Source of the DNA: a virus
Taxonomy: Duplodnaviria; Caudoviricetes
Strand: one strand, 5' to 3'
IMG/VR virus record: IMGVR_UViG_3300044557_000185
Span: 32,001-96,000 of that record
DNA: 64,000 nt
The stretch's first letter is position 1, and every line of letters starts with the position of its first letter. Below, piece after piece: positions 28,282-41,459 of the stretch. Below the pieces are notes generated by a model, which worked only from the letters and a program-made list of their open reading frames with translations, did no database searches and was not told where the DNA came from. The position numbers and the translations under genes are program-made.

Positions 28282-28512
28282 GACTTTCTTGCTACTTCTT
28301 CTCTATCTTAGACAGAATGACTGATATGATCGCTACTATTGCTAGTATAGAAAGCATTATGAAATTCAAGATAGCTGCTCCTATAGCTTGTATTTGATGA
28401 TGAGACCTATATCTCTATATAATCTATTATATCAAACAAGCTACGGTTTGCGATGTTTTCGCTGCTCTCTTTTGCATGAACATCATTGTCCATAGCAACA
28501 TACAGCAAAAAG

Positions 28513-29037
28513 CTACATCAGATTTTTGATGGCACGCATTGAATACTGTTGTGCTAGCATGTCGATTACATCTTCTTTTGTTATGCTAGACACTATGCTG
28601 CTGACTTTGCTGCGCAATGCTTTATTGTCGCTGATGTCATGTTTCAGATTCGATATGACAGCATCAGAGAAGTTGTCTAGATCGTCTTCTATTGCATTAG
28701 AATCAGCATCATGCATTATGCCATGTATGACATTCTTGTCTTCGTATAGTTTGTTCAATACGAACATTCTAGCTGCTTTGCTAATGACATTTGCTGTATT
28801 GCGTCTTTTGACTGATTCGTCTGCATAATCGAAATCGTTTTCTGAATCTATGCTCTTGAATGATTGCTTGTCATAGCTATGCACAGTTCTGATTAAGCGT
28901 TCAGATTCGCAATTGCGATACTTGATGGGATTGGAAGACCTTCTAGACTTCTTTCTCTTCTTGAATGCTTTAGCACCTATGACTATCATATCTGAATCAT
29001 CTAGCATATCGTCTCTTTCTGCATTACTGCAATTCAT
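28513..29037 (-). CDS. hypothetical protein
   Basis: 174-aa ORF on the coding strand. Confidence 0.55.
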   Translation of the reverse strand: MNCSNAERDDMLDDSDMIVIGAKAFKKRKKSRRSSNPIKYRNCESERLIRTVHSYDKQSFKSIDSENDFDYADESVKRRNTANVISKAARMFVLNKLYEDKNVIHGIMHDADSNAIEDDLDNFSDAVISNLKHDISDNKALRSKVSSIVSSITKEDVIDMLAQQYSMRAIKNLM

Positions 29038-29149
29038 TTCAGATTCTCGTATTTTTTCGCAAGCATTACTGCCAAGCTAGATATTGGTTTGAAGACCAAT
29101 ATGACTATCGTAGTCTATTTGAAAAATCACTCTATTTTAGAATCAGAAA

Positions 29150-29464
29150 TCAGATGCTTTCAAGTTCTGAACGTCTTCTATCCATTACATGAAGTCTGTT
29201 ATTGATAGATTCATACAAATCGAATGTCTTCTTGTCTTTTACTGGAACATTTGGCAAAGTCATTTCTGTATAAGCATATAGAACATCTAGCTCTTTGATC
29301 AAATTAGCATTCAAGTCTTCATAATGATTAAGCAAAGCATACGAAATCTTTGAGTCAAGCTTAAGCCATTGCTCTTGATTGAATGCAAGTCTGTTCATTT
29401 TAGATTTCGTGAATAGTGAATGATATGATTCATCTGCAAATTCATTTTCATTTTCAATGCTCAT
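29150..29464 (-). CDS. hypothetical protein immediately downstream of the structured RNA
   Basis: AGAAAGAAG RBS-like sequence, 104 aa. Confidence 0.6.
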   Translation of the reverse strand: MSIENENEFADESYHSLFTKSKMNRLAFNQEQWLKLDSKISYALLNHYEDLNANLIKELDVLYAYTEMTLPNVPVKDKKTFDLYESINNRLHVMDRRRSELESI

Positions 29465-29474
29465 GTTAGATTCT

Positions 29475-29970
29475 TCTTTCTATGATAAGATATTTAGATG
29501 TTGATGTGTATTCTAAGCATACTTGTCCTATTTCAGGGAAATAGCCCTGAACTGCTGTCTATAAAACAAGCTTCGGATATAGAGTATTCTATGCTGTGCA
29601 GACATTGAGGATATTGTGGTCCTCAGACTTGCATTTGCTCTGAGCATTAGATGGAACTCGTAGGCTATGCCTCTTAAGCAGACCATGAATTTCAGCATTT
29701 CTGAAGTTGCTGATCCCATCTTGCATCAGATGCAAGCACGAACAAAGATGCCAGGCTATTTCAGTACCTGCACATATGGTTGAATTGCTTCTGGATGTGA
29801 AAGCTACTGCCATCCAAAGTACTGCATGATCATCAAGCATATCGAAATCGTATGATGTCAGTAATCAACTCAATCGATATTAGCTCATGCAGCAAAAGAC
29901 CATATGCTAGACACAATGTCCATGTCTGTATTGCTCAACACAATCTTATCATAGATTGTCACCAACCTAT
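29475..29970 (-). ncRNA. putative large structured ncRNA or leader (about 500 nt)
   Basis: Perfect 13-bp closing inverted repeat 29479-29491/29943-29955, many internal hairpins, consensus promoter just upstream, no convincing ORF. Confidence 0.65.
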
Positions 29971-29976
29971 ATGAAT

Positions 29977-30005
29977 ATTATATAACACTTTTTAGCAAAT
30001 GTAAA
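29977..30005 (-). promoter_or_regulatory. sigma70-like promoter TTTACA-N17-TATAAT
   Basis: Consensus match. Confidence 0.75.
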
Positions 30006-30095
30006 ATAGTGGATTTACTAGTCTATATAATTATATGGATACTAAACAACGATTTCAATCTGGATAAACCTGACAACAACTGGAATGCTTCAGAT

Positions 30096-30124
30096 TTTAC
30101 TTTTATACAATTATGCTATATAAT
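30096..30124 (+). promoter_or_regulatory. sigma70-like promoter TTTACT-N17-TATAAT
   Basis: Consensus match, divergent from the 29977 promoter. Confidence 0.7.
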
Positions 30125-30350
30125 ACAACTACAAAAACAAAATCAGAAAGTAACTTCAAAAGCAAGTAATTTTGCTATACTAACTTCCACTTTTTCGCAA
30201 TAGCTTTAGATGTCAATAAAAGACGAAGTACATAGCTTCGTAGACGATTTTGCATTTAATGTATTGACGGGCAATTTCTATTATTGCACTTTTTGCATGC
30301 AGAGCAATAATTATATTTTTAAAGAATATAATTATTTGTATGCTTGTGAT

Positions 30351-30379
30351 TTTACTTTGATAAAAATATGGTATATAAT
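30351..30379 (+). promoter_or_regulatory. sigma70-like promoter TTTACT-N17-TATAAT
   Basis: Consensus match upstream of the plus-strand gene pair. Confidence 0.75.
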
Positions 30380-30424
30380 ATAATTATAAACCAATAAAGG
30401 TTTATACAAAAAGAAGGAATCAAA

Positions 30425-30898
30425 ATGCAAGACTACGATTATTCGATGACTAAAAGCACTTATAAAGGTGTTAGCTATTATGAAGCTGAAGGTCAGACTG
30501 AAGCTTATGATCTTGGAAAGACCACTATTGACATTCTTAATGACAATAAAGATCGACTTCTTAGCAATGGTAATGAAACAGTAATCTTCAATGGTTATTC
30601 TGAATCTGGCTATTATTGCAAGAGCATTAAAATGTCAAATGCAATTGTCTATTCTCCAATTGAGAAGAATATCAAGTCTGTTCTTTATGCTAAAGACGAA
30701 TTCTTGTCAAGTGACAATTATGATTCAGAAAACGATTATGCAATGGCTCTGCAATCATATCTAATCGAACGAAAGAAGCAAATTGTAGCTCGTGGTGGAT
30801 ATGCAAAGATTGGGCTTTCATTCTATATGGAGTCTATGACATTAGACTCTGATATCGTAGATGAGATTGTGCATATGAATGATAGCCTATTGATGTGA
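30425..30898 (+). CDS. hypothetical protein
   Basis: AAGGA RBS after a promoter. Confidence 0.7.
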   Translation: MQDYDYSMTKSTYKGVSYYEAEGQTEAYDLGKTTIDILNDNKDRLLSNGNETVIFNGYSESGYYCKSIKMSNAIVYSPIEKNIKSVLYAKDEFLSSDNYDSENDYAMALQSYLIERKKQIVARGGYAKIGLSFYMESMTLDSDIVDEIVHMNDSLLM

Positions 30899-30927
30899 TT
30901 TTAAGAAAGACAGAAAGAATTGGAAAA

Positions 30928-31308
30928 ATGAGCGTTTCTGCTCAGCAGATACACTGGCTTGACATAGCTACAGAACTTGCTAAGCTCAGTTCATGCAAGA
31001 AGAAACACGGTGCTTTAGTCGTAAGAAGCAACAATGTTCTGTCTGTCGGAATCAACAAGATGCGAAACAATCCTGCATACATGCTAGACAGACCATCAGG
31101 CATATCTGTTCATGCTGAAGAGCAAGCTTTGAAGGCATGCAGAGGTGATGCAGGCAATTCTACTATCTACGTAGCTAGAGTCTATTCTGATGGCACAGCC
31201 ACGATGTCTAAGCCATGCAAGAGATGCCAGAAGCTGATGAAAGCAGCTAACGTAAAGAATGCAGTGTATACAGACTGGCATGGCAATGCTTGCATCATGC
31301 ATGTATGA
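30928..31308 (+). CDS. Zn-dependent dCMP/cytidine deaminase-like protein
   Basis: HAEE and PCKRC motifs; HGALVV..N.VLSVGIN. Confidence 0.8.
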   Translation: MSVSAQQIHWLDIATELAKLSSCKKKHGALVVRSNNVLSVGINKMRNNPAYMLDRPSGISVHAEEQALKACRGDAGNSTIYVARVYSDGTATMSKPCKRCQKLMKAANVKNAVYTDWHGNACIMHV

Positions 31309-38346: not shown

Positions 38347-38500
38347 AGTAATGTTGCTTATATTTATGAACTACTTCTGAGTTAAAGATTCAGAAGCTTC
38401 CAGTTTCATCGAGTCCTGCGTATTCGAAAAAGATTCGAATGCGTCTAGTAGACTCTCCACTGGCTTAAAGTCCCTACATTCCATAGGTATTTGATTTGAT
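38347..38500 (-). ncRNA. probable omegaRNA/right end overlapping the tnpB 3' end; 5' limit approximate
   Basis: Terminal hairpin CTTCTGA/TCAGAAG then TAGTTCA (boundary about 38367); putative guide TAAATATAAGCAACATTACT. Confidence 0.55.
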
Positions 38501-39666
38501 TGTTCAGCAAATCTAATCATGTTCCTTGCAGCATGGACATCTCTATCGCAATGATATCCGCAGTCACAGGAATACGTTCTTGCTGACAATGGCATGCCAT
38601 TCTTCTTGCCACATATGCACATCTTAGTGGTTGGTTGCCATTTGTCTAGAACAATAGTTCTCTGGTTTGCGATTAGCTTTGCTTTGACTCTTCCAAGAAT
38701 CGATTGCCGAATTCCCTTTGAGCCACGAGCAATAGACTTTCTCATTCTCCAAGAACTGATGTTCTCATCCTGCATGCAGACATGCTCATGCTGCAACAGA
38801 TAGTGAACTACCTGATTTGCTATGTTGTTCTTTTTGTTTGTCAGCTTTCGATATTCACTATGAATGCAATCAAGATTCTTCCTATAGCCGTTAGAGCCTT
38901 TTGTCTGACGCGACAATTTCTTGTGCAACCGTCTCAAGTGCTCGGTTTCTCCGACTACAGTCTTGATCTTGATTCCATTGGATAGAGTGATGTGGGTCTT
39001 TACTCCCATATCTATACCAATTGCTGAACCATCTACAAAATCTTCTTTTTGCTTGTCTCTGAAACAGGTGACAGCAAGATAGTATCCATCAGGCTTATTC
39101 AGAAGATGAGCATTTGCAAGTTCATATCCATGAATCTGCTCAGCTCCGTTGACATGAACCCATCCACCGACTTTCTGAATTCTAGCTTTATTGTTTTTAA
39201 TCTTATATGTACGATTTGCCTGTTGAAGATTGATTGATGAGACGTTGGAAACAAATCTGAGCTTGCCAACTTTACCACCATGCTTCTTTTTTGTTGATAA
39301 AGCTTTGATGTTCTGCTTGACTTCTGCAACGACTGATTGCTTCATCTGAGCACTAAGATATCTGAATTTTCTGGACACCGTTTTATCAGGAAGCTTTACA
39401 TCGACTTCATTCTGAATTCTATATCCGTCAAGACCTTTGGCTATCACATCGTTTCTCAACCATTTTGCCTCAACGAACATCATCTTTAGCTGTTCTTTCT
39501 GAGTCTTATTCAGTTTGTTTGTCTGAATCTTCAGATTGAACACATTGCAAGTCTGATGTCTTCTTCGTTCTCGAGTCATCTTCATTGATCTGGCAATTGA
39601 AGCGTTCTTGGATAGACGCTTGTAGTCATCCATGCTTCTCTTAATGTCAGTCAATGTTTTATTCAT
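38371..39666 (-). CDS. tnpB: RNA-guided endonuclease TnpB (IS200/IS605-type), no TnpA nearby
   Basis: GIDMG (RuvC-I), QDE (RuvC-II), C.CG...C.CG zinc ribbon, DRDVHAARN (RuvC-III). Confidence 0.9.
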   Translation of the reverse strand: MNKTLTDIKRSMDDYKRLSKNASIARSMKMTRERRRHQTCNVFNLKIQTNKLNKTQKEQLKMMFVEAKWLRNDVIAKGLDGYRIQNEVDVKLPDKTVSRKFRYLSAQMKQSVVAEVKQNIKALSTKKKHGGKVGKLRFVSNVSSINLQQANRTYKIKNNKARIQKVGGWVHVNGAEQIHGYELANAHLLNKPDGYYLAVTCFRDKQKEDFVDGSAIGIDMGVKTHITLSNGIKIKTVVGETEHLRRLHKKLSRQTKGSNGYRKNLDCIHSEYRKLTNKKNNIANQVVHYLLQHEHVCMQDENISSWRMRKSIARGSKGIRQSILGRVKAKLIANQRTIVLDKWQPTTKMCICGKKNGMPLSARTYSCDCGYHCDRDVHAARNMIRFAEQSNQIPMECRDFKPVESLLDAFESFSNTQDSMKLEASESLTQK

Positions 39667-39828: not shown

Positions 39829-40875
39829 TCAAAACATTCCAGCATATGGAGACTTGAACTTAGACGGCTTAGCATATGCATCTATGTCAGACACAGCTGA
39901 ATTTAGCGAATCAGACGGGCTAGACACTACATTATTCAGATATCTGTCTGCTCTAGCATTAGTCTGGTCTGAAAGAAGTCTGTACGCTAGCACCATCAAG
40001 CAGTCGACAAGATCTGAGTGCCCAAGATTACCTATTCTTGGCTTGACTACTTTCCCATTCACTATCTGCAAAGCTTCCAGTTCTGCTTGAAGCATGCACC
40101 TAGCTGTCTCCCAAGTGTTCATGTCATCGAAGTACGAATGAACCCAATGCTCATTTATGCACATCTTCAATATCTCGTACATCTTAGTGTTCTTGCTTCC
40201 AGTGAATGTCTCTTCAAACACTTTGCAAGCTATGTTGTTATCATGGCAGTATGCCATCAGATCCTGTATCGGCATTACTGAATTGAACTGATCGAATGAT
40301 ATCGTCTTAAGTCTGAACAGAGCTATTAGCTGCTTTATGTCATTCAGTATGGGTCTGTATTCTATCTGACCTGATTCGAACTGACTTGACTTGTAGACTG
40401 AATACCAGTCGACTATCATGTGCTTGTAGCTTATGCCGAACTCATCTGGCTCATTCAGTTCAGAATGGCATATCATGACAGCAAAGTCGTCGTTGACTTT
40501 AGCTGGATCGCAATGCATATGGTACTCTTTGGAGTATTCACCCTGATTTCGCTTCTCAAGATGCATGTGAATGCCATTGATGTCGAAGTCATCGAATATC
40601 TTAGCTACTGCTTGAGGAGACAGATAGACGTTCAAGCCCTCGACGAACTGAGCTCTGTTCTCAACTCTAGCATTTATCGGATCAGCTGCTTCTTCAGCTG
40701 CCATAGCTTGCTCTTCAATTGAGCCATTTGCATCAGGCTTGAACTGTATTGGCCTGGAGAATGCAAGACGCTTGTAAGCTTTAGCTTTATGAAAAGCATC
40801 TAGCTCAATATTGCTCATATCTGAAGTATCAATTGCTTCAGAATCCAACACTTTTACGAAATGTCCCATTTTCAC
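39829..40875 (-). CDS. terminase large subunit, C-terminal (nuclease) fragment
   Basis: HCDPAKVNDDF, ISFDQFNS and SDLVDCL RNase H-fold motifs. Confidence 0.8.
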   Translation of the reverse strand: MKMGHFVKVLDSEAIDTSDMSNIELDAFHKAKAYKRLAFSRPIQFKPDANGSIEEQAMAAEEAADPINARVENRAQFVEGLNVYLSPQAVAKIFDDFDINGIHMHLEKRNQGEYSKEYHMHCDPAKVNDDFAVMICHSELNEPDEFGISYKHMIVDWYSVYKSSQFESGQIEYRPILNDIKQLIALFRLKTISFDQFNSVMPIQDLMAYCHDNNIACKVFEETFTGSKNTKMYEILKMCINEHWVHSYFDDMNTWETARCMLQAELEALQIVNGKVVKPRIGNLGHSDLVDCLMVLAYRLLSDQTNARADRYLNNVVSSPSDSLNSAVSDIDAYAKPSKFKSPYAGMF

Positions 40876-40985
40876 CAGATTAACTGTAGTAATTGAAGCT
40901 TGTATATATAATTATATACTAACAGTTTACTGCAATTAATCTGAGTGATTCATGAGAACATGCTAAATTGCATTTTTGCATAATG

Positions 40986-41459
40986 CTACTTAAGAGGCAC
41001 ATCGAATTGCTTGTAACGACTCATTCCTCCAGGTAAGCCATAGGAGTCAATGCATTGCGTAGCATATTTGACAGTCACATTGCCACGATTCCCATGAAGA
41101 AGAATCGGTCGCTTATCTCTGCTCAAGAACCAGATAGAGCCATCTTCCTTCCTGAACAGAGTAAGCACATCTTTTCTAGATAGCTCTTCATTTGGCAAGC
41201 GTTCGCTGTCTTCTTTTCTGGCAGCATACATGAATTCTGCATATGCTCCTGCTTTGGGAGCATGGTTCTGATCATACAGAGAGTCTATCGATATGCTGTC
41301 GCAGATCTTGATTCCATCAGCATCAGCAACTGCTTCATAGACAGCATAGCCTTCTACACCTTTACATAGTCTAAAGTAGGTGTCAAGATCATGAAGACGA
41401 ACATGCACTTCATCTCCTGCTTTGACATTGTCTTTCATGTTGATTCTTCTAGCATTCAT
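40986..41459 (-). CDS. hypothetical protein
   Basis: 157-aa ORF on the coding strand. Confidence 0.6.
   Translation of the reverse strand: MNARRINMKDNVKAGDEVHVRLHDLDTYFRLCKGVEGYAVYEAVADADGIKICDSISIDSLYDQNHAPKAGAYAEFMYAARKEDSERLPNEELSRKDVLTLFRKEDGSIWFLSRDKRPILLHGNRGNVTVKYATQCIDSYGLPGGMSRYKQFDVPLK

What the first reader, a model, noticed from the sequence alone, without database searches (positions are those of the whole stretch)
29475..29970. About 500-nt highly structured non-coding transcript behind a consensus promoter
Seen: promoter TTTACA-N17-TATAAT at 29977-30005. The region's ends pair through a perfect 13-bp stem (29943-29955 with 29479-29491), extended by UGUUGA/UCAACA. Internal hairpins include AGACA/UGUCU, GGAUG/CAUCC, UUGCAUC-U-GAUGCAA, CUCAGA/UCUGAG, GAGGA/UCCUC, UCUAUA/UAUAGA and UUCAGGG/CCCUGAA. 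The loop region of the last one (29538-29546) is complementary to 29754-29762, giving a possible pseudoknot or switch. Only weak ORFs overlap it, and the RBS of 29150..29464 abuts the closing stem. Inference: a large phage ncRNA comparable in size to ROOL/GOLLD-type RNAs, or an RNA leader paired with the 104-aa protein.
Basis: partly seen in the sequence, partly recalled or inferred. Interest (0 to 1): 0.8.

Follow-up and report, generated by a model that had tools for sequence, protein, structure and literature searches.

The report
Orphan structured leader RNA of phage
A wastewater phage carries about 490 untranslated, tightly folded and unusually well-conserved bases between a strong early promoter and two small orphan genes; the fold matches no known RNA family, and it contains a 25-base stretch that can cover the ribosome-binding site of the second gene, so it is most likely a large RNA switch or leader rather than a gene for a protein.

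Summary
The sequence features are real. The promoter at 30005..29977 (-) is one of 12 copies of a phage promoter family. A perfect 13-bp stem closes 29955..29479. The 511-nt fold has z = -4.0.

The region is non-coding. No frame opens under any stop-codon reassignment. All 7 substitutions in the 83-aa ORF change the protein, and no protein search gave a hit. It diverges less (1.2-2.2%) than the neighbouring spacers (3-8%). Of 13 substitutions at paired sites, 11 keep pairing on the minus-strand RNA only.

It matches no Rfam family (ROOL, GOLLD, tmRNA, introns, c4). No homologue was found beyond about 95% identical phages, so true covariation cannot be tested.

New here:
- Bases 29911..29887 are complementary (22 W-C plus 1 G.U of 25) to the Shine-Dalgarno and start codon (true start 29007) of the gene after ORF104. 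No shuffle of 1000 matched this, and it ranks first of 56 start regions.
- The closed fold and this anti-RBS duplex are nearly isoenergetic.
- One sludge run holds a form lacking exactly 29121..29974, which is the RNA plus ORF104.

Best reading, at 0.45: a large bistable early leader. Transcription is not shown. The scan noted this same RNA before on a near-identical genome (e1-3448491).

The parts
30030..30058 (-). Upstream sigma-70-like promoter TTGAAA-N17-TATAAT, in tandem with the main promoter
   Evidence: 11 of 12 matches. The sequence is nearly invariant in L004 and L005.
29977..30005 (-). Main promoter TTTACA-N17-TATAAT, a member of the phage's TTTACW..TGNTATATAAT promoter family. Predicted transcription start near 29970.
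   Evidence: 12 family members against 0.76 expected. In one search most other family members have about 25-60 nt leaders with AAAGGA-type SD sequences.
29465..29970 (-). Untranslated leader of about 506 nt, from the predicted start to the base before the ORF104 ATG
   Evidence: No open frame under any single stop reassignment. z = -4.03. No Rfam match.
29479..29955 (-). Closed RNA domain of 477 nt (state A): 22 helices and 164 pairs in the MFE
   Evidence: 11 of 13 substitution events keep pairing. Divergence 1.2-2.2%.
29943..29955 (-). 5' arm of the 13-bp closing stem (UCUAUGAUAAGAU)
   Evidence: I4. Pair probability 0.97 in the 511-nt context, but 0.01 when the 1031-nt transcript is folded.
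29479..29491 (-). 3' arm of the closing stem, immediately followed by the SD-like AAAGAAG of ORF104
   Evidence: The C>U change at 29484 in L004 keeps a G.U pair.
29772..29907 (-). Sub-domain D1: a 9-bp closing helix, a three-tier hairpin and the GGAUG/CAUCC hairpin
   Evidence: z = -2.99. Model R1. Two A>G changes on its closing helix keep G.U pairs.
29623..29741 (-). Sub-domain D2
   Evidence: z = -2.30. Model R2. Three pair-keeping substitutions.
29514..29595 (-). Sub-domain D3: two hairpins, including UUCAGGG/CCCUGAA
   Evidence: z = -1.98. One pair-keeping and one pair-breaking substitution.
29887..29911 (-). Anti-RBS segment. In the closed fold it supplies the 5' strands of D1 helices. 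It is invariant in all variants seen.
   Evidence: (I1). Duplex energies are -32.3, -31.6 and -29.7 kcal/mol in the window, L004 and L005.
29000..29024 (-). Target of the anti-RBS: the Shine-Dalgarno (AAAGAG) and the conserved AUG (29007) of the gene after ORF104
   Evidence: RNAduplex gives -39.5 against a shuffle mean of -26.4 (sd 2.8), with 0 of 1000 as low. It ranks first of 56 start regions.
29150..29464 (-). ORF104: a real gene for an orphan, acidic, three-helix protein
   Evidence: 12 of 16 substitutions are synonymous. Only 93% and 51% identical relatives were found. AF2 pLDDT 80. pI 5.1.
28513..29007 (-). Second gene of the unit. It is listed as a 174-aa ORF starting at 29037, but its conserved start is 29007, giving 164 aa. 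It is an orphan.
   Evidence: The ATG at 29037 is ACG in L005 and out of frame in L004. Only an 86% identical relative was found.
29121..29974 (-). 854-bp presence/absence cassette (RNA plus ORF104), starting 2 nt after the TATAAT
   Evidence: In run X2 a contig joins 29120 to 29975 (depth 43.6), flanking unitigs end exactly there, and a contig carrying the cassette is present at depth 15.
29754..29762 (-). Loop segment GAAAUAGCC, complementary to 29546..29538 (GGCUAUUUC). A possible kissing interaction, at chance level.

Best explanation
The region is the roughly 500-nt structured 5' leader of an early accessory transcript: promoter 30005..29977, then the RNA, then ORF104, then a 164-aa gene that starts at 29007. 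It works at the RNA level as a bistable regulatory leader.

Shown:
- The leader folds into a compact 477-nt domain closed by a 13-bp stem (state A).
- Its sequence and its pairing are under purifying selection on the minus strand.
- Bases 29911..29887, which in state A form the 5' strands of the D1 helices, are complementary over 25 nt to the Shine-Dalgarno and AUG of the 164-aa gene, about 860 nt downstream.
- The closed fold and the fold containing this anti-RBS duplex (state B) are within about 1 kcal/mol of each other in two of the three phages.

Inferred:
- State A forms first during transcription. It hides the anti-RBS and leaves both ribosome-binding sites usable.
- Refolding to state B, either with time or on an unknown trigger, covers the SD and AUG of the 164-aa gene.
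- In the predicted state B fold, the freed 3' arm of the closing stem also pairs with the ORF104 AUG.
- Expression of the early accessory genes would thus be shut off. The 25-bp duplex could also be cut by RNase III.

The RNA and ORF104 form a dispensable cassette that natural variants lack.
For: Promoter and leader:
- The promoter belongs to a 12-member family, and most members with a clear SD have about 25-60 nt leaders.
- No - strand terminator lies between the promoter and 28200.

Structure:
- z = -4.03. Sub-domain z values are -3.0, -2.3 and -2.0.
- The 13-bp stem exceeds every stem in 60 shuffles.

Selection:
- RNA divergence is 2.2% and 1.2%, against 5.2% and 5.0% in the adjacent spacers (Fisher p = 0.010 and 0.0004).
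- 11 of 13 substitution events at paired sites keep pairing in state A. The figures are 3 of 10 on the + strand and 4 of 7 in the state-B global fold.
- Random transitions reach 11 of 12 with p = 0.007.
- The 10:1 ratio (L004 and L005 only) is the highest among control windows with 8 or more events.

Not coding:
- (ORF83: 7 of 7 nonsynonymous).

Anti-RBS:
- It is the top inverted repeat of the locus (I1).
- Duplex energy is -32.3 kcal/mol.
- 0 of 1000 shuffled leaders reach the observed RNAduplex energy, and it ranks first of 56 start regions.
- The target covers the only start codon conserved in all three phages.
- In L005 the one substitution in the target falls on an already mismatched position. 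In L004 the one insertion costs 0.7 kcal/mol.

Bistability:
- Closing stem forced against anti-RBS forced gives -256.3/-256.4 (window), -268.6/-267.3 (L004) and -243.2/-251.5 (L005).

Cassette:
- The cassette is lost as one unit in a natural variant.
Against: - No transcript ends, processing or expression are shown. The RNA-library evidence is two contigs at depth 2 and may be DNA.
- There are no compensatory double substitutions and no homologues beyond about 95% identity, so there is no real covariation.
- The anti-RBS was found after the fact, among many possible complementarities.
- Long-range pairs predicted in a 1-kb RNA are unreliable. The rest of the predicted state-B fold is not supported by the substitutions (4 keep, 3 break).
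- In state A the ORF104 SD is already accessible, so the closing stem is not a classical sequestering helix.
- 490 nt is far more than an anti-RBS switch needs.
- No trigger or ligand is identified.
- Some coding windows also show high pair-keeping ratios by chance, for example 6:0 and 7:1.
Confidence: 0.45

Rival explanations
1. A stand-alone stable non-coding RNA. The closed 477-nt domain is cut out of the early transcript at its closing stem, by RNase III, E, J or Y. It then acts in trans as a scaffold, decoy or multimeric particle, in the way proposed for other large phage RNAs (ROOL, GOLLD). The complementarity to the downstream RBS would be either coincidental or the RNA's trans-antisense target.
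For: - The 5' and 3' ends are paired in a long stem, as in most stable RNAs.
- The domain ends exactly before the ORF104 SD, which stays accessible.
- Unpaired positions are as conserved as paired ones: 4 substitutions in 183 nt against 11 in 328 nt.
- The size and the branched, multi-domain fold exceed what a leader needs.
- It sits behind a strong early promoter.
- ROOL and GOLLD are phage and prophage RNAs of unknown function (10.1101/2024.12.08.627333).
Against: - There is no terminator or recognisable processing site after the RNA.
- There is no Rfam match and no tRNA neighbourhood.
- It is confined to one phage species.
- It is lost together with ORF104, which suggests a single expression unit.
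- The closing stem is not favoured once the downstream mRNA is included in the fold.
Confidence: 0.25
2. No dedicated RNA function. The stretch would be a recently acquired or recombined piece of non-coding DNA (a remnant or spacer) in an indel hot spot. Its low divergence would reflect a recent sweep or transfer, and its fold and complementarities would be chance.
For: - The locus is a hot spot. Window 30150-30952 is missing in L004 and L005, and the cassette is missing in a variant.
- Local four-fold-site divergence in the two orphan genes is lower than in the structural genes, though sample sizes are small.
- The count of perfect stems is at chance level.
- z = -4 is not unique in this window.
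- Pair-keeping ratios of 6:0 or 7:1 also occur in coding control windows.
Against: - The RNA diverges 2-4 times less than the spacers directly beside it, and less than ORF104 as a whole.
- The substitution pattern is strand-specific: 11:2 against 3:7.
- The MFE stays the same or improves in the relatives on the - strand, and worsens on the + strand.
- The anti-RBS complementarity beats 1000 shuffles and all 55 other start regions.
- The region is richer in G+C than its AT-rich non-coding flanks.
Confidence: 0.2
3. A protein-coding or DNA-level element: a small gene (ORF63 or ORF83), a decayed gene, a transposon with terminal inverted repeats, or a replication or packaging site.
For: - 3 of 4 substitutions in ORF63 are synonymous.
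- The 13-bp inverted repeat could be read as the ends of a miniature transposon.
- The + strand folds almost as well as the - strand.
Against: - All 7 substitutions in ORF83 are nonsynonymous. ORF63 has no SD, and 4 substitutions are too few to judge.
- There are no Pfam, PHROG or tblastn hits.
- There is no similarity to any ORF of the distant relatives.
- No frame is open under recoding.
- The element is single-copy in the genome.
- The inverted repeat does not sit at the indel boundaries, and no target-site duplication is seen.
- The wobble-type substitutions would be mismatches in a DNA cruciform or in the + strand.
Confidence: 0.05

Closest known systems
c4 antisense RNA of phages P1/P7 (immI operon c4-icd-ant; Rfam RF01695)
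   Same: A regulatory RNA is encoded at the 5' end of the same operon whose downstream gene it represses. It acts by pairing at that gene's translation start region. The operon layout and the downstream C4 binding site are described in PMC8198154. The RBS-pairing mechanism is from my own knowledge of Citron & Schuster 1990 and Biere et al. 1992.
   Different: c4 is a small RNA (77 nt as I recall) processed by RNase P (own knowledge), with two short loop-target contacts in a temperate-phage immunity circuit. Here the RNA is about 490 nt and there is one 25-nt contact about 860 nt downstream. The genes are orphans in what looks like a virulent myovirus. No processing is shown, and there is no match to the Rfam model.
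Long-distance translational control in RNA phage MS2/Qbeta (the Min Jou interaction) and fold-back inhibition in hok mRNA
   Same: A distant upstream segment of the same RNA pairs with a downstream ribosome-binding region, and alternative folds decide whether the gene is translated (own knowledge).
   Different: Those interactions lie inside coding RNA genomes or in a small toxin mRNA, and are opened by ribosomes or by 3' processing. Here the upstream partner lies in an untranslated, independently folded domain of a DNA phage early transcript.
ROOL (RF03087) and GOLLD (RF01998) large ornate RNAs of phages and prophages
   Same: These are large phage-borne RNAs of unknown function with many helices (GOLLD often exceeds 800 nt; ROOL is roughly 500-600 nt as I recall) (10.1101/2024.12.08.627333; PMC5737381).
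   Different: There is no sequence or structure match. The RNA is not next to tRNA genes. It is known from one phage species only. It is fused to a downstream mRNA with no terminator. No covariation support or multimer evidence exists.
RNase III-processed early leaders of phages lambda (pL-N leader) and T7
   Same: Structured RNA lies just downstream of an early promoter, and long duplexes in it could be RNase III substrates that alter translation of the next gene (own knowledge).
   Different: Those elements are single hairpins of about 60-100 nt. This is a 477-nt multi-domain fold, and no cleavage has been tested.
Promoter-associated mobile cassettes of T4-type phages (PeSL, promoter-early stem-loop modules)
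   Same: Accessory cassettes sit directly behind repeated early promoters, and are gained or lost between close relatives, probably by recombination at the promoter repeats (own knowledge of Arbiol et al. 2010). Here the cassette starts 2 nt after the -10 box, and both junctions resemble the family's ATAACTATAAA motif.
   Different: PeSL cassettes carry small ORFs with a short stem-loop, not a 490-nt structured RNA.

Membership tests
ROOL (RF03087) / GOLLD (RF01998) | Match to the family covariance model (conserved sequence and secondary structure) | tested here: not met
   cmscan of the whole window at gathering thresholds gave 0 matches. Window 28900-30500 at E up to 10 gave only 8 chance-level hits, none to ROOL or GOLLD.
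ROOL (RF03087) / GOLLD (RF01998) | Usual location beside tRNA genes or islands in phages and prophages (typical, not strictly defining) | tested here: not met
   ARAGORN found no tRNA in the window. The genome has one tRNA-Arg, at G000:C1:106127-106201, about 44 kb away.
Large structured ncRNA in general | Secondary structure supported by compensatory covariation across diverged homologues | tested here: inconclusive
   Only copies at least 95% identical exist. 10 pairs vary on one side and stay paired, 1 breaks, and there are no double changes. With the run variants the tally is 11 keep and 2 break, and the pattern is strand-specific.
tmRNA / RNase P RNA / 6S / SRP RNA | Match to the Rfam model or to ARAGORN's tmRNA detector | tested here: not met
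Group I / group II intron, retron, DGR | Ribozyme core model match, canonical splice boundaries, and a reverse transcriptase for group II introns, retrons and DGRs | tested here: not met
   No Rfam hit. The absent-form boundaries give an element that starts UCAUA and ends UUUUC, with no terminal G and no GUGYG. The left boundary lies upstream of the predicted transcription start. There is no RVT_1 domain in the genome.
c4 antisense RNA (RF01695) | Match to the family model | tested here: not met
c4-like / leader-embedded antisense (mechanism, not family) | An upstream RNA of the same operon is complementary to the translation start region of a downstream gene | tested here: met
   29887-29911 against 29000-24 has 22 W-C plus 1 G.U of 25, covering the SD and AUG. 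0 of 1000 shuffles are as strong, and it ranks first of 56 start regions. Function is not tested.
Riboswitch / translational leader | A known aptamer, plus an expression platform (a terminator or an RBS-sequestering alternative helix) | tested here: inconclusive
   There is no known aptamer and no terminator. The ORF104 SD is not sequestered in the closed fold. However, a near-isoenergetic alternative fold sequesters the RBS of the second gene.
Type III toxin-antitoxin (ToxI-like RNA) | Tandem RNA repeats upstream of the toxin gene | tested here: not met
   TRF finds only a 6-nt, 2.7-copy repeat inside ORF104.
Protein-coding gene or pseudogene | An open frame with synonymous-biased substitutions or detectable homologues | tested here: not met

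The most novel reading that the evidence does not exclude
The closed 477-nt domain is a new class of large phage RNA machine: a sensor or self-assembling RNA expressed early. It would both act in its own right, for example against a host defence or on the ribosome, and throttle the neighbouring orphan genes through its 25-nt anti-RBS. It would travel with a small acidic protein as a mobile promoter-proximal cassette.
Probability: 0.12. Interest if true: 0.8.

Novelty: new variant of a known kind. Interest (0 to 1): 0.5.

Why it matters
Large structured RNAs of unknown function are rare, and many of the known ones are phage-borne. Each new one is a chance to learn what such RNAs do.

This one offers a concrete, testable handle. 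It has two nearly isoenergetic folds. One has the substitution pattern of a selected structure. The other buries the ribosome-binding site of a downstream early gene about 860 nt away. If confirmed, it would extend long-range, leader-encoded translational control to the early accessory genes of a large DNA phage, on a scale about six times larger than the P1 c4 RNA. Such control is known from P1 c4 and from RNA phages.

The RNA plus ORF104 unit is naturally present or absent among co-occurring phage variants. That marks it as an accessory module of the kind that often carries host-takeover or anti-defence functions.

If it proves to be only an oversized leader, it is a modest curiosity confined to one phage species.

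Tried and rejected
Searches for homologues, all negative beyond the same phage species:
- blastn 'distant' of 29100-30450 against 50,697 phage records gave no match.
- Exact 20-23-mers of the RNA in IMG/VR hit only the two 95% identical contigs. There were none in the JGI metagenomes.
- In GTDB genomes there were none with one 22-mer. One chance hit with another 20-mer did not match the models.
- A two-loop pattern with a gap gave three chance loci with no model match.
- Covariance models of D1 and D2 found nothing in the complete records of four distant relatives (57% identity in the baseplate protein). blastn and nhmmer on their syntenic loci were also negative, and gene order there differs.
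- The ORF104 route found one 51% identical, 76-aa relative (P0083). No locus for it turned up in IMG/VR or the JGI metagenomes.
- The ORF174 route found only an 86% identical relative.

Other lines that led nowhere:
- Protein-partner idea: the AF2 model of ORF104 is a three-helix bundle. Foldseek against PDB and BFVD found nothing below E = 1, and the ESM Atlas had no named neighbours.
- Recoding: no frame opens with TAA, TAG or TGA read through.
- The TnpB element at 38371..39666 shows no evident relation of its ends to this cassette, by eye.
- Pseudoknot 29754-29762 / 29538-29546: real complementarity, but at chance level.
- The global leader-ORF104 'zipper' predicted in the 1031-nt MFE is rejected as a selected structure (4 keep, 3 break).
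- RNA-library run X12 holds only two depth-2 contigs (29343-29486 and 29550-29700). This is not evidence of transcription or of its absence.
Full report
CONTEXT

The window is bases 32001-96000 of a complete 108,378-bp IMG/VR virus record with direct terminal repeats. Its baseplate and tail proteins are 30-35% identical to those of Mycobacterium, Gordonia and Rhodococcus myoviruses. The DNA occurs in bioreactor-sludge and wastewater runs.

The finding lies in a 960-bp gap between two groups of genes:
- Minus-strand genes: a 104-aa ORF at 29150..29464, a '174-aa' ORF, and then the baseplate genes.
- A divergent plus-strand pair: a 157-aa ORF and dCMP deaminase.

THE OBSERVATION

The promoter TTTACA-N17-TATAAT (30005..29977, -) is present. 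It is one of 12 copies in the window of a family TTTACW..TGNTATATAAT (0.76 expected), which is usually followed by ATAACTATAAA. Most family members with a clear SD have leaders of about 25-60 nt carrying an AAAGGA-type Shine-Dalgarno. This copy has 510 nt before the next ATG.

The 13-bp closing stem (29955-29943 with 29491-29479) is perfect, and longer than any stem in 60 shuffles.

The 511-nt minus-strand RNA folds at -152.8 kcal/mol with z = -4.03. Three self-contained sub-domains give z = -3.0, -2.3 and -2.0. Most helices have pair probabilities of 0.6-0.98.

Caveats:
- The plus strand folds almost as well.
- The count of short perfect stems is at chance level, and so is the proposed pseudoknot.
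- A GC-regressed scan puts the region at -2.65 sd, and another locus in the window is stronger.

NOT CODING, NOT A KNOWN RNA

- No frame opens under any stop reassignment.
- The 83-aa ORF has 7 of 7 nonsynonymous substitutions. The 63-aa ORF has 3 of 4 synonymous, which is too few to judge, and it has no SD.
- Pfam, PHROGs and tblastn against phages give nothing. No ORF of the distant relatives matches.
- Rfam gives no match at gathering scores anywhere in the window, and only chance-level hits at E up to 10 locally.
- ARAGORN finds no tRNA or tmRNA in the window. The genome encodes no reverse transcriptase. There are no tandem repeats.

EVIDENCE FOR SELECTION ON AN RNA

Two IMG/VR contigs (L004 and L005) carry the locus at about 95% identity.

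Divergence:
- The RNA (29479-29970) differs at 2.2% and 1.2% of sites.
- The adjacent spacers differ at 3-8%, and ORF104 as a whole at 5.1%.
- Four-fold sites in the structural genes differ at 10-20%. Fisher tests of the RNA against the spacers give p = 0.010 and 0.0004.

Pairing:
- ORF104 is clearly coding, with 12 of 16 substitutions synonymous.
- At MFE-paired positions, 10 of 11 changes in L004 and L005 convert G-C or A-U to G.U, or the reverse.
- Two further variants from sequencing runs bring the tally to 11 keep and 2 break. One of the breaks comes from a contig at depth 4.
- The same changes on the plus strand give 3 keep and 7 break.
- Minus-strand MFEs hold or improve in the relatives, while plus-strand MFEs worsen.
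- Random transitions reach 11 of 12 with p = 0.007.
- In about 54 control windows of flanking coding DNA the mean keep fraction is about 0.5, and no window with 8 or more events reaches 10:1. Ratios such as 6:0 and 7:1 do occur.

This is suggestive, strand-specific evidence for a conserved RNA fold. It is not covariation in the strict sense, because there are no double changes.

NO WIDER FAMILY

Exact-word scans of IMG/VR, the JGI metagenomes and GTDB genomes found no homologue beyond this phage species.

THE UNIT IS A DISPENSABLE CASSETTE

In sludge run X2, a contig joins 29120 directly to 29975 (depth 43.6), and the flanking unitigs end exactly at those bases. Another contig at depth 15 carries the intervening 854 bp.

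The missing piece is the whole RNA plus ORF104, and it begins 2 nt after the TATAAT. Both junctions resemble the promoter family's initial transcribed motif. This fits gain or loss by recombination at promoter-proximal repeats. It does not fit an intron or a transposon: there are no splice-like ends, no target duplication, and the 13-bp inverted repeat is not at the boundaries.

L004 and L005 in turn lack window 30150-30952, so the locus is an indel hot spot.

A NEW ELEMENT: AN ANTI-RBS

The strongest inverted repeat of the locus pairs 29911..29887 with 29024..29000. These bases supply the 5' strands of the D1 helices in the closed fold. The match is 22 Watson-Crick pairs plus 1 G.U out of 25, at -32.3 kcal/mol.

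Aligning the three phages shows that the annotated start of the '174-aa' ORF (29037) cannot be real. It is ACG in L005, and it is out of frame in L004 because of a 1-nt insertion. The conserved start is the ATG at 29007, preceded by AAAGAG. The target of the complementarity is therefore exactly the SD plus AUG of this gene.

How strong the match is:
- RNAduplex of the leader against this start region gives -39.5 kcal/mol. 1000 dinucleotide shuffles of the leader give -26.4 +/- 2.8, and none is as low.
- It ranks first among 56 minus-strand start regions of the window. The next is -35.9 and the median is -21.7.
- The duplex is retained in L004 (-31.6) and L005 (-29.7). The L005 substitution falls on an already mismatched position.

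What folding the longer transcript shows:
- Folding the 1031-nt transcript puts the duplex in the MFE with pair probabilities of 0.9-0.98, and drops the closing stem to 0.01.
- Forcing either state gives nearly equal energies in the window (-256.3 against -256.4) and in L004 (-268.6 against -267.3). The anti-RBS state is favoured in L005 (-243.2 against -251.5).
- In the predicted open state, the freed 3' arm of the closing stem pairs with the ORF104 AUG. In the closed state both SD sequences are free.
- Apart from the anti-RBS duplex, the predicted open-state fold is not supported by the substitutions (4 keep, 3 break). The closed state is supported (11 keep, 2 break).

INTERPRETATION

The best-supported reading (0.45) is a large, bistable early leader. 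The compact domain forms first and hides the anti-RBS. Refolding, by time or by an unknown signal, then masks the RBS of the 164-aa gene and perhaps the ORF104 AUG, possibly with RNase III cleavage of the 25-bp duplex.

Shown:
- the promoter family;
- the fold statistics;
- conservation;
- the strand-specific substitution pattern;
- the complementarity and its significance;
- the near-equal energies of the two states;
- the cassette polymorphism.

Inferred:
- transcription;
- the order of folding;
- the switch itself;
- any cleavage.

Rivals:
- A stand-alone stable ncRNA excised at its closing stem (0.25).
- A non-functional, recently acquired spacer with chance structure (0.2).
- A coding or DNA-level element (0.05).

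ORF104 is acidic (pI 5.1) and models as a generic three-helix bundle with no structural neighbours, so an RNA-protein particle is not favoured.

COMPARISON WITH KNOWN SYSTEMS

In mechanism it is closest to the P1/P7 c4 antisense RNA. That RNA is encoded at the head of the c4-icd-ant operon and acts on a site downstream in the same operon (PMC8198154). It also resembles long-distance RBS control in RNA phages and in hok mRNA (own knowledge).

It is not a member of the c4, ROOL or GOLLD families. Its size (about 490 nt), its closed multi-domain fold and the 860-nt span of the interaction are the differences.

Other notes describe analogous but unrelated 'large leader plus small gene' units in other phages. 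Those notes are unchecked leads, not evidence.

VERDICT

This is a real, conserved, structured non-coding element with a plausible and testable regulatory mechanism. Expression has not been shown, there is no covariation, and it is so far confined to one phage species. Interest 0.5.

Noticed in passing
window 28513-29037 (-): The start of the '174-aa' ORF is wrong. The ATG at 29037 is ACG in L005 and is frameshifted in L004. The only start conserved in all three phages is the ATG at 29007 (SD AAAGAG), giving 164 aa. In L004 the gene caller used the ATG at 29024, giving 170 aa.
   Followed up: yes
window 40751-41250 (-): This is the strongest folding outlier of the window: z = -5.84, and -3.8 sd in the GC-regressed scan. 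It includes a long dyad around a TATATAATTATATATA core at about 40890-40960, in the gap before the gene 39829..40875. It may be the 'dyad element' of another note.
   Followed up: partly
window 30150-30952: The 157-aa gene (30425..30898), its upstream region and the first bases of the dCMP deaminase gene are absent from the two 95% relatives, where about 138 nt stand instead. This is a second indel at the same divergent early-promoter hub.
   Followed up: partly
window 3091-62978, 12 sites: A promoter family TTTACW-N11-12-TGNTATATAAT occurs 12 times against 0.76 expected. About half the copies (mainly those from 43 to 58 kb) are followed by ATAACTATAAA. Nearly all copies are on the - strand in front of small early genes, and two + strand copies (30096-30124 and 30351-30379) face away from the RNA.
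   Followed up: partly
window 29624-29635 and 29382-29393: A perfect 12-nt complementarity links the 3' strand of sub-domain D2 to codons about 24-28 of ORF104. About 0.04 such matches are expected in this 1.15-kb stretch. The L004 substitution at 29627 breaks it but strengthens the intra-leader helix.
   Followed up: partly
window 28996-29011 and 29829-29844: A 16-nt direct repeat (15 of 16 identical) links the start region of the 164-aa gene to the 3' strand of the D1 hairpin. Part of the leader may have arisen by duplication of the downstream gene start.
   Followed up: no
window 28282-28512 (-): The spacer before the 440-aa baseplate gene holds a TTGATATAAT motif (about 28428-28440) and a possible 25-codon hydrophobic mini-ORF that starts with TTG after an AGGAG.
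   Followed up: no
protein P0083 (no locus): This is the only relative of ORF104 outside this phage species: 76 aa, 51% identical over residues 34-104. Its genomic context could not be fetched, and whether a large RNA precedes it is the obvious question.
   Followed up: partly
G000:C1:106127-106201 (outside the window): The genome's single tRNA gene, tRNA-Arg(TCT), lies about 44 kb from the RNA.
   Followed up: no
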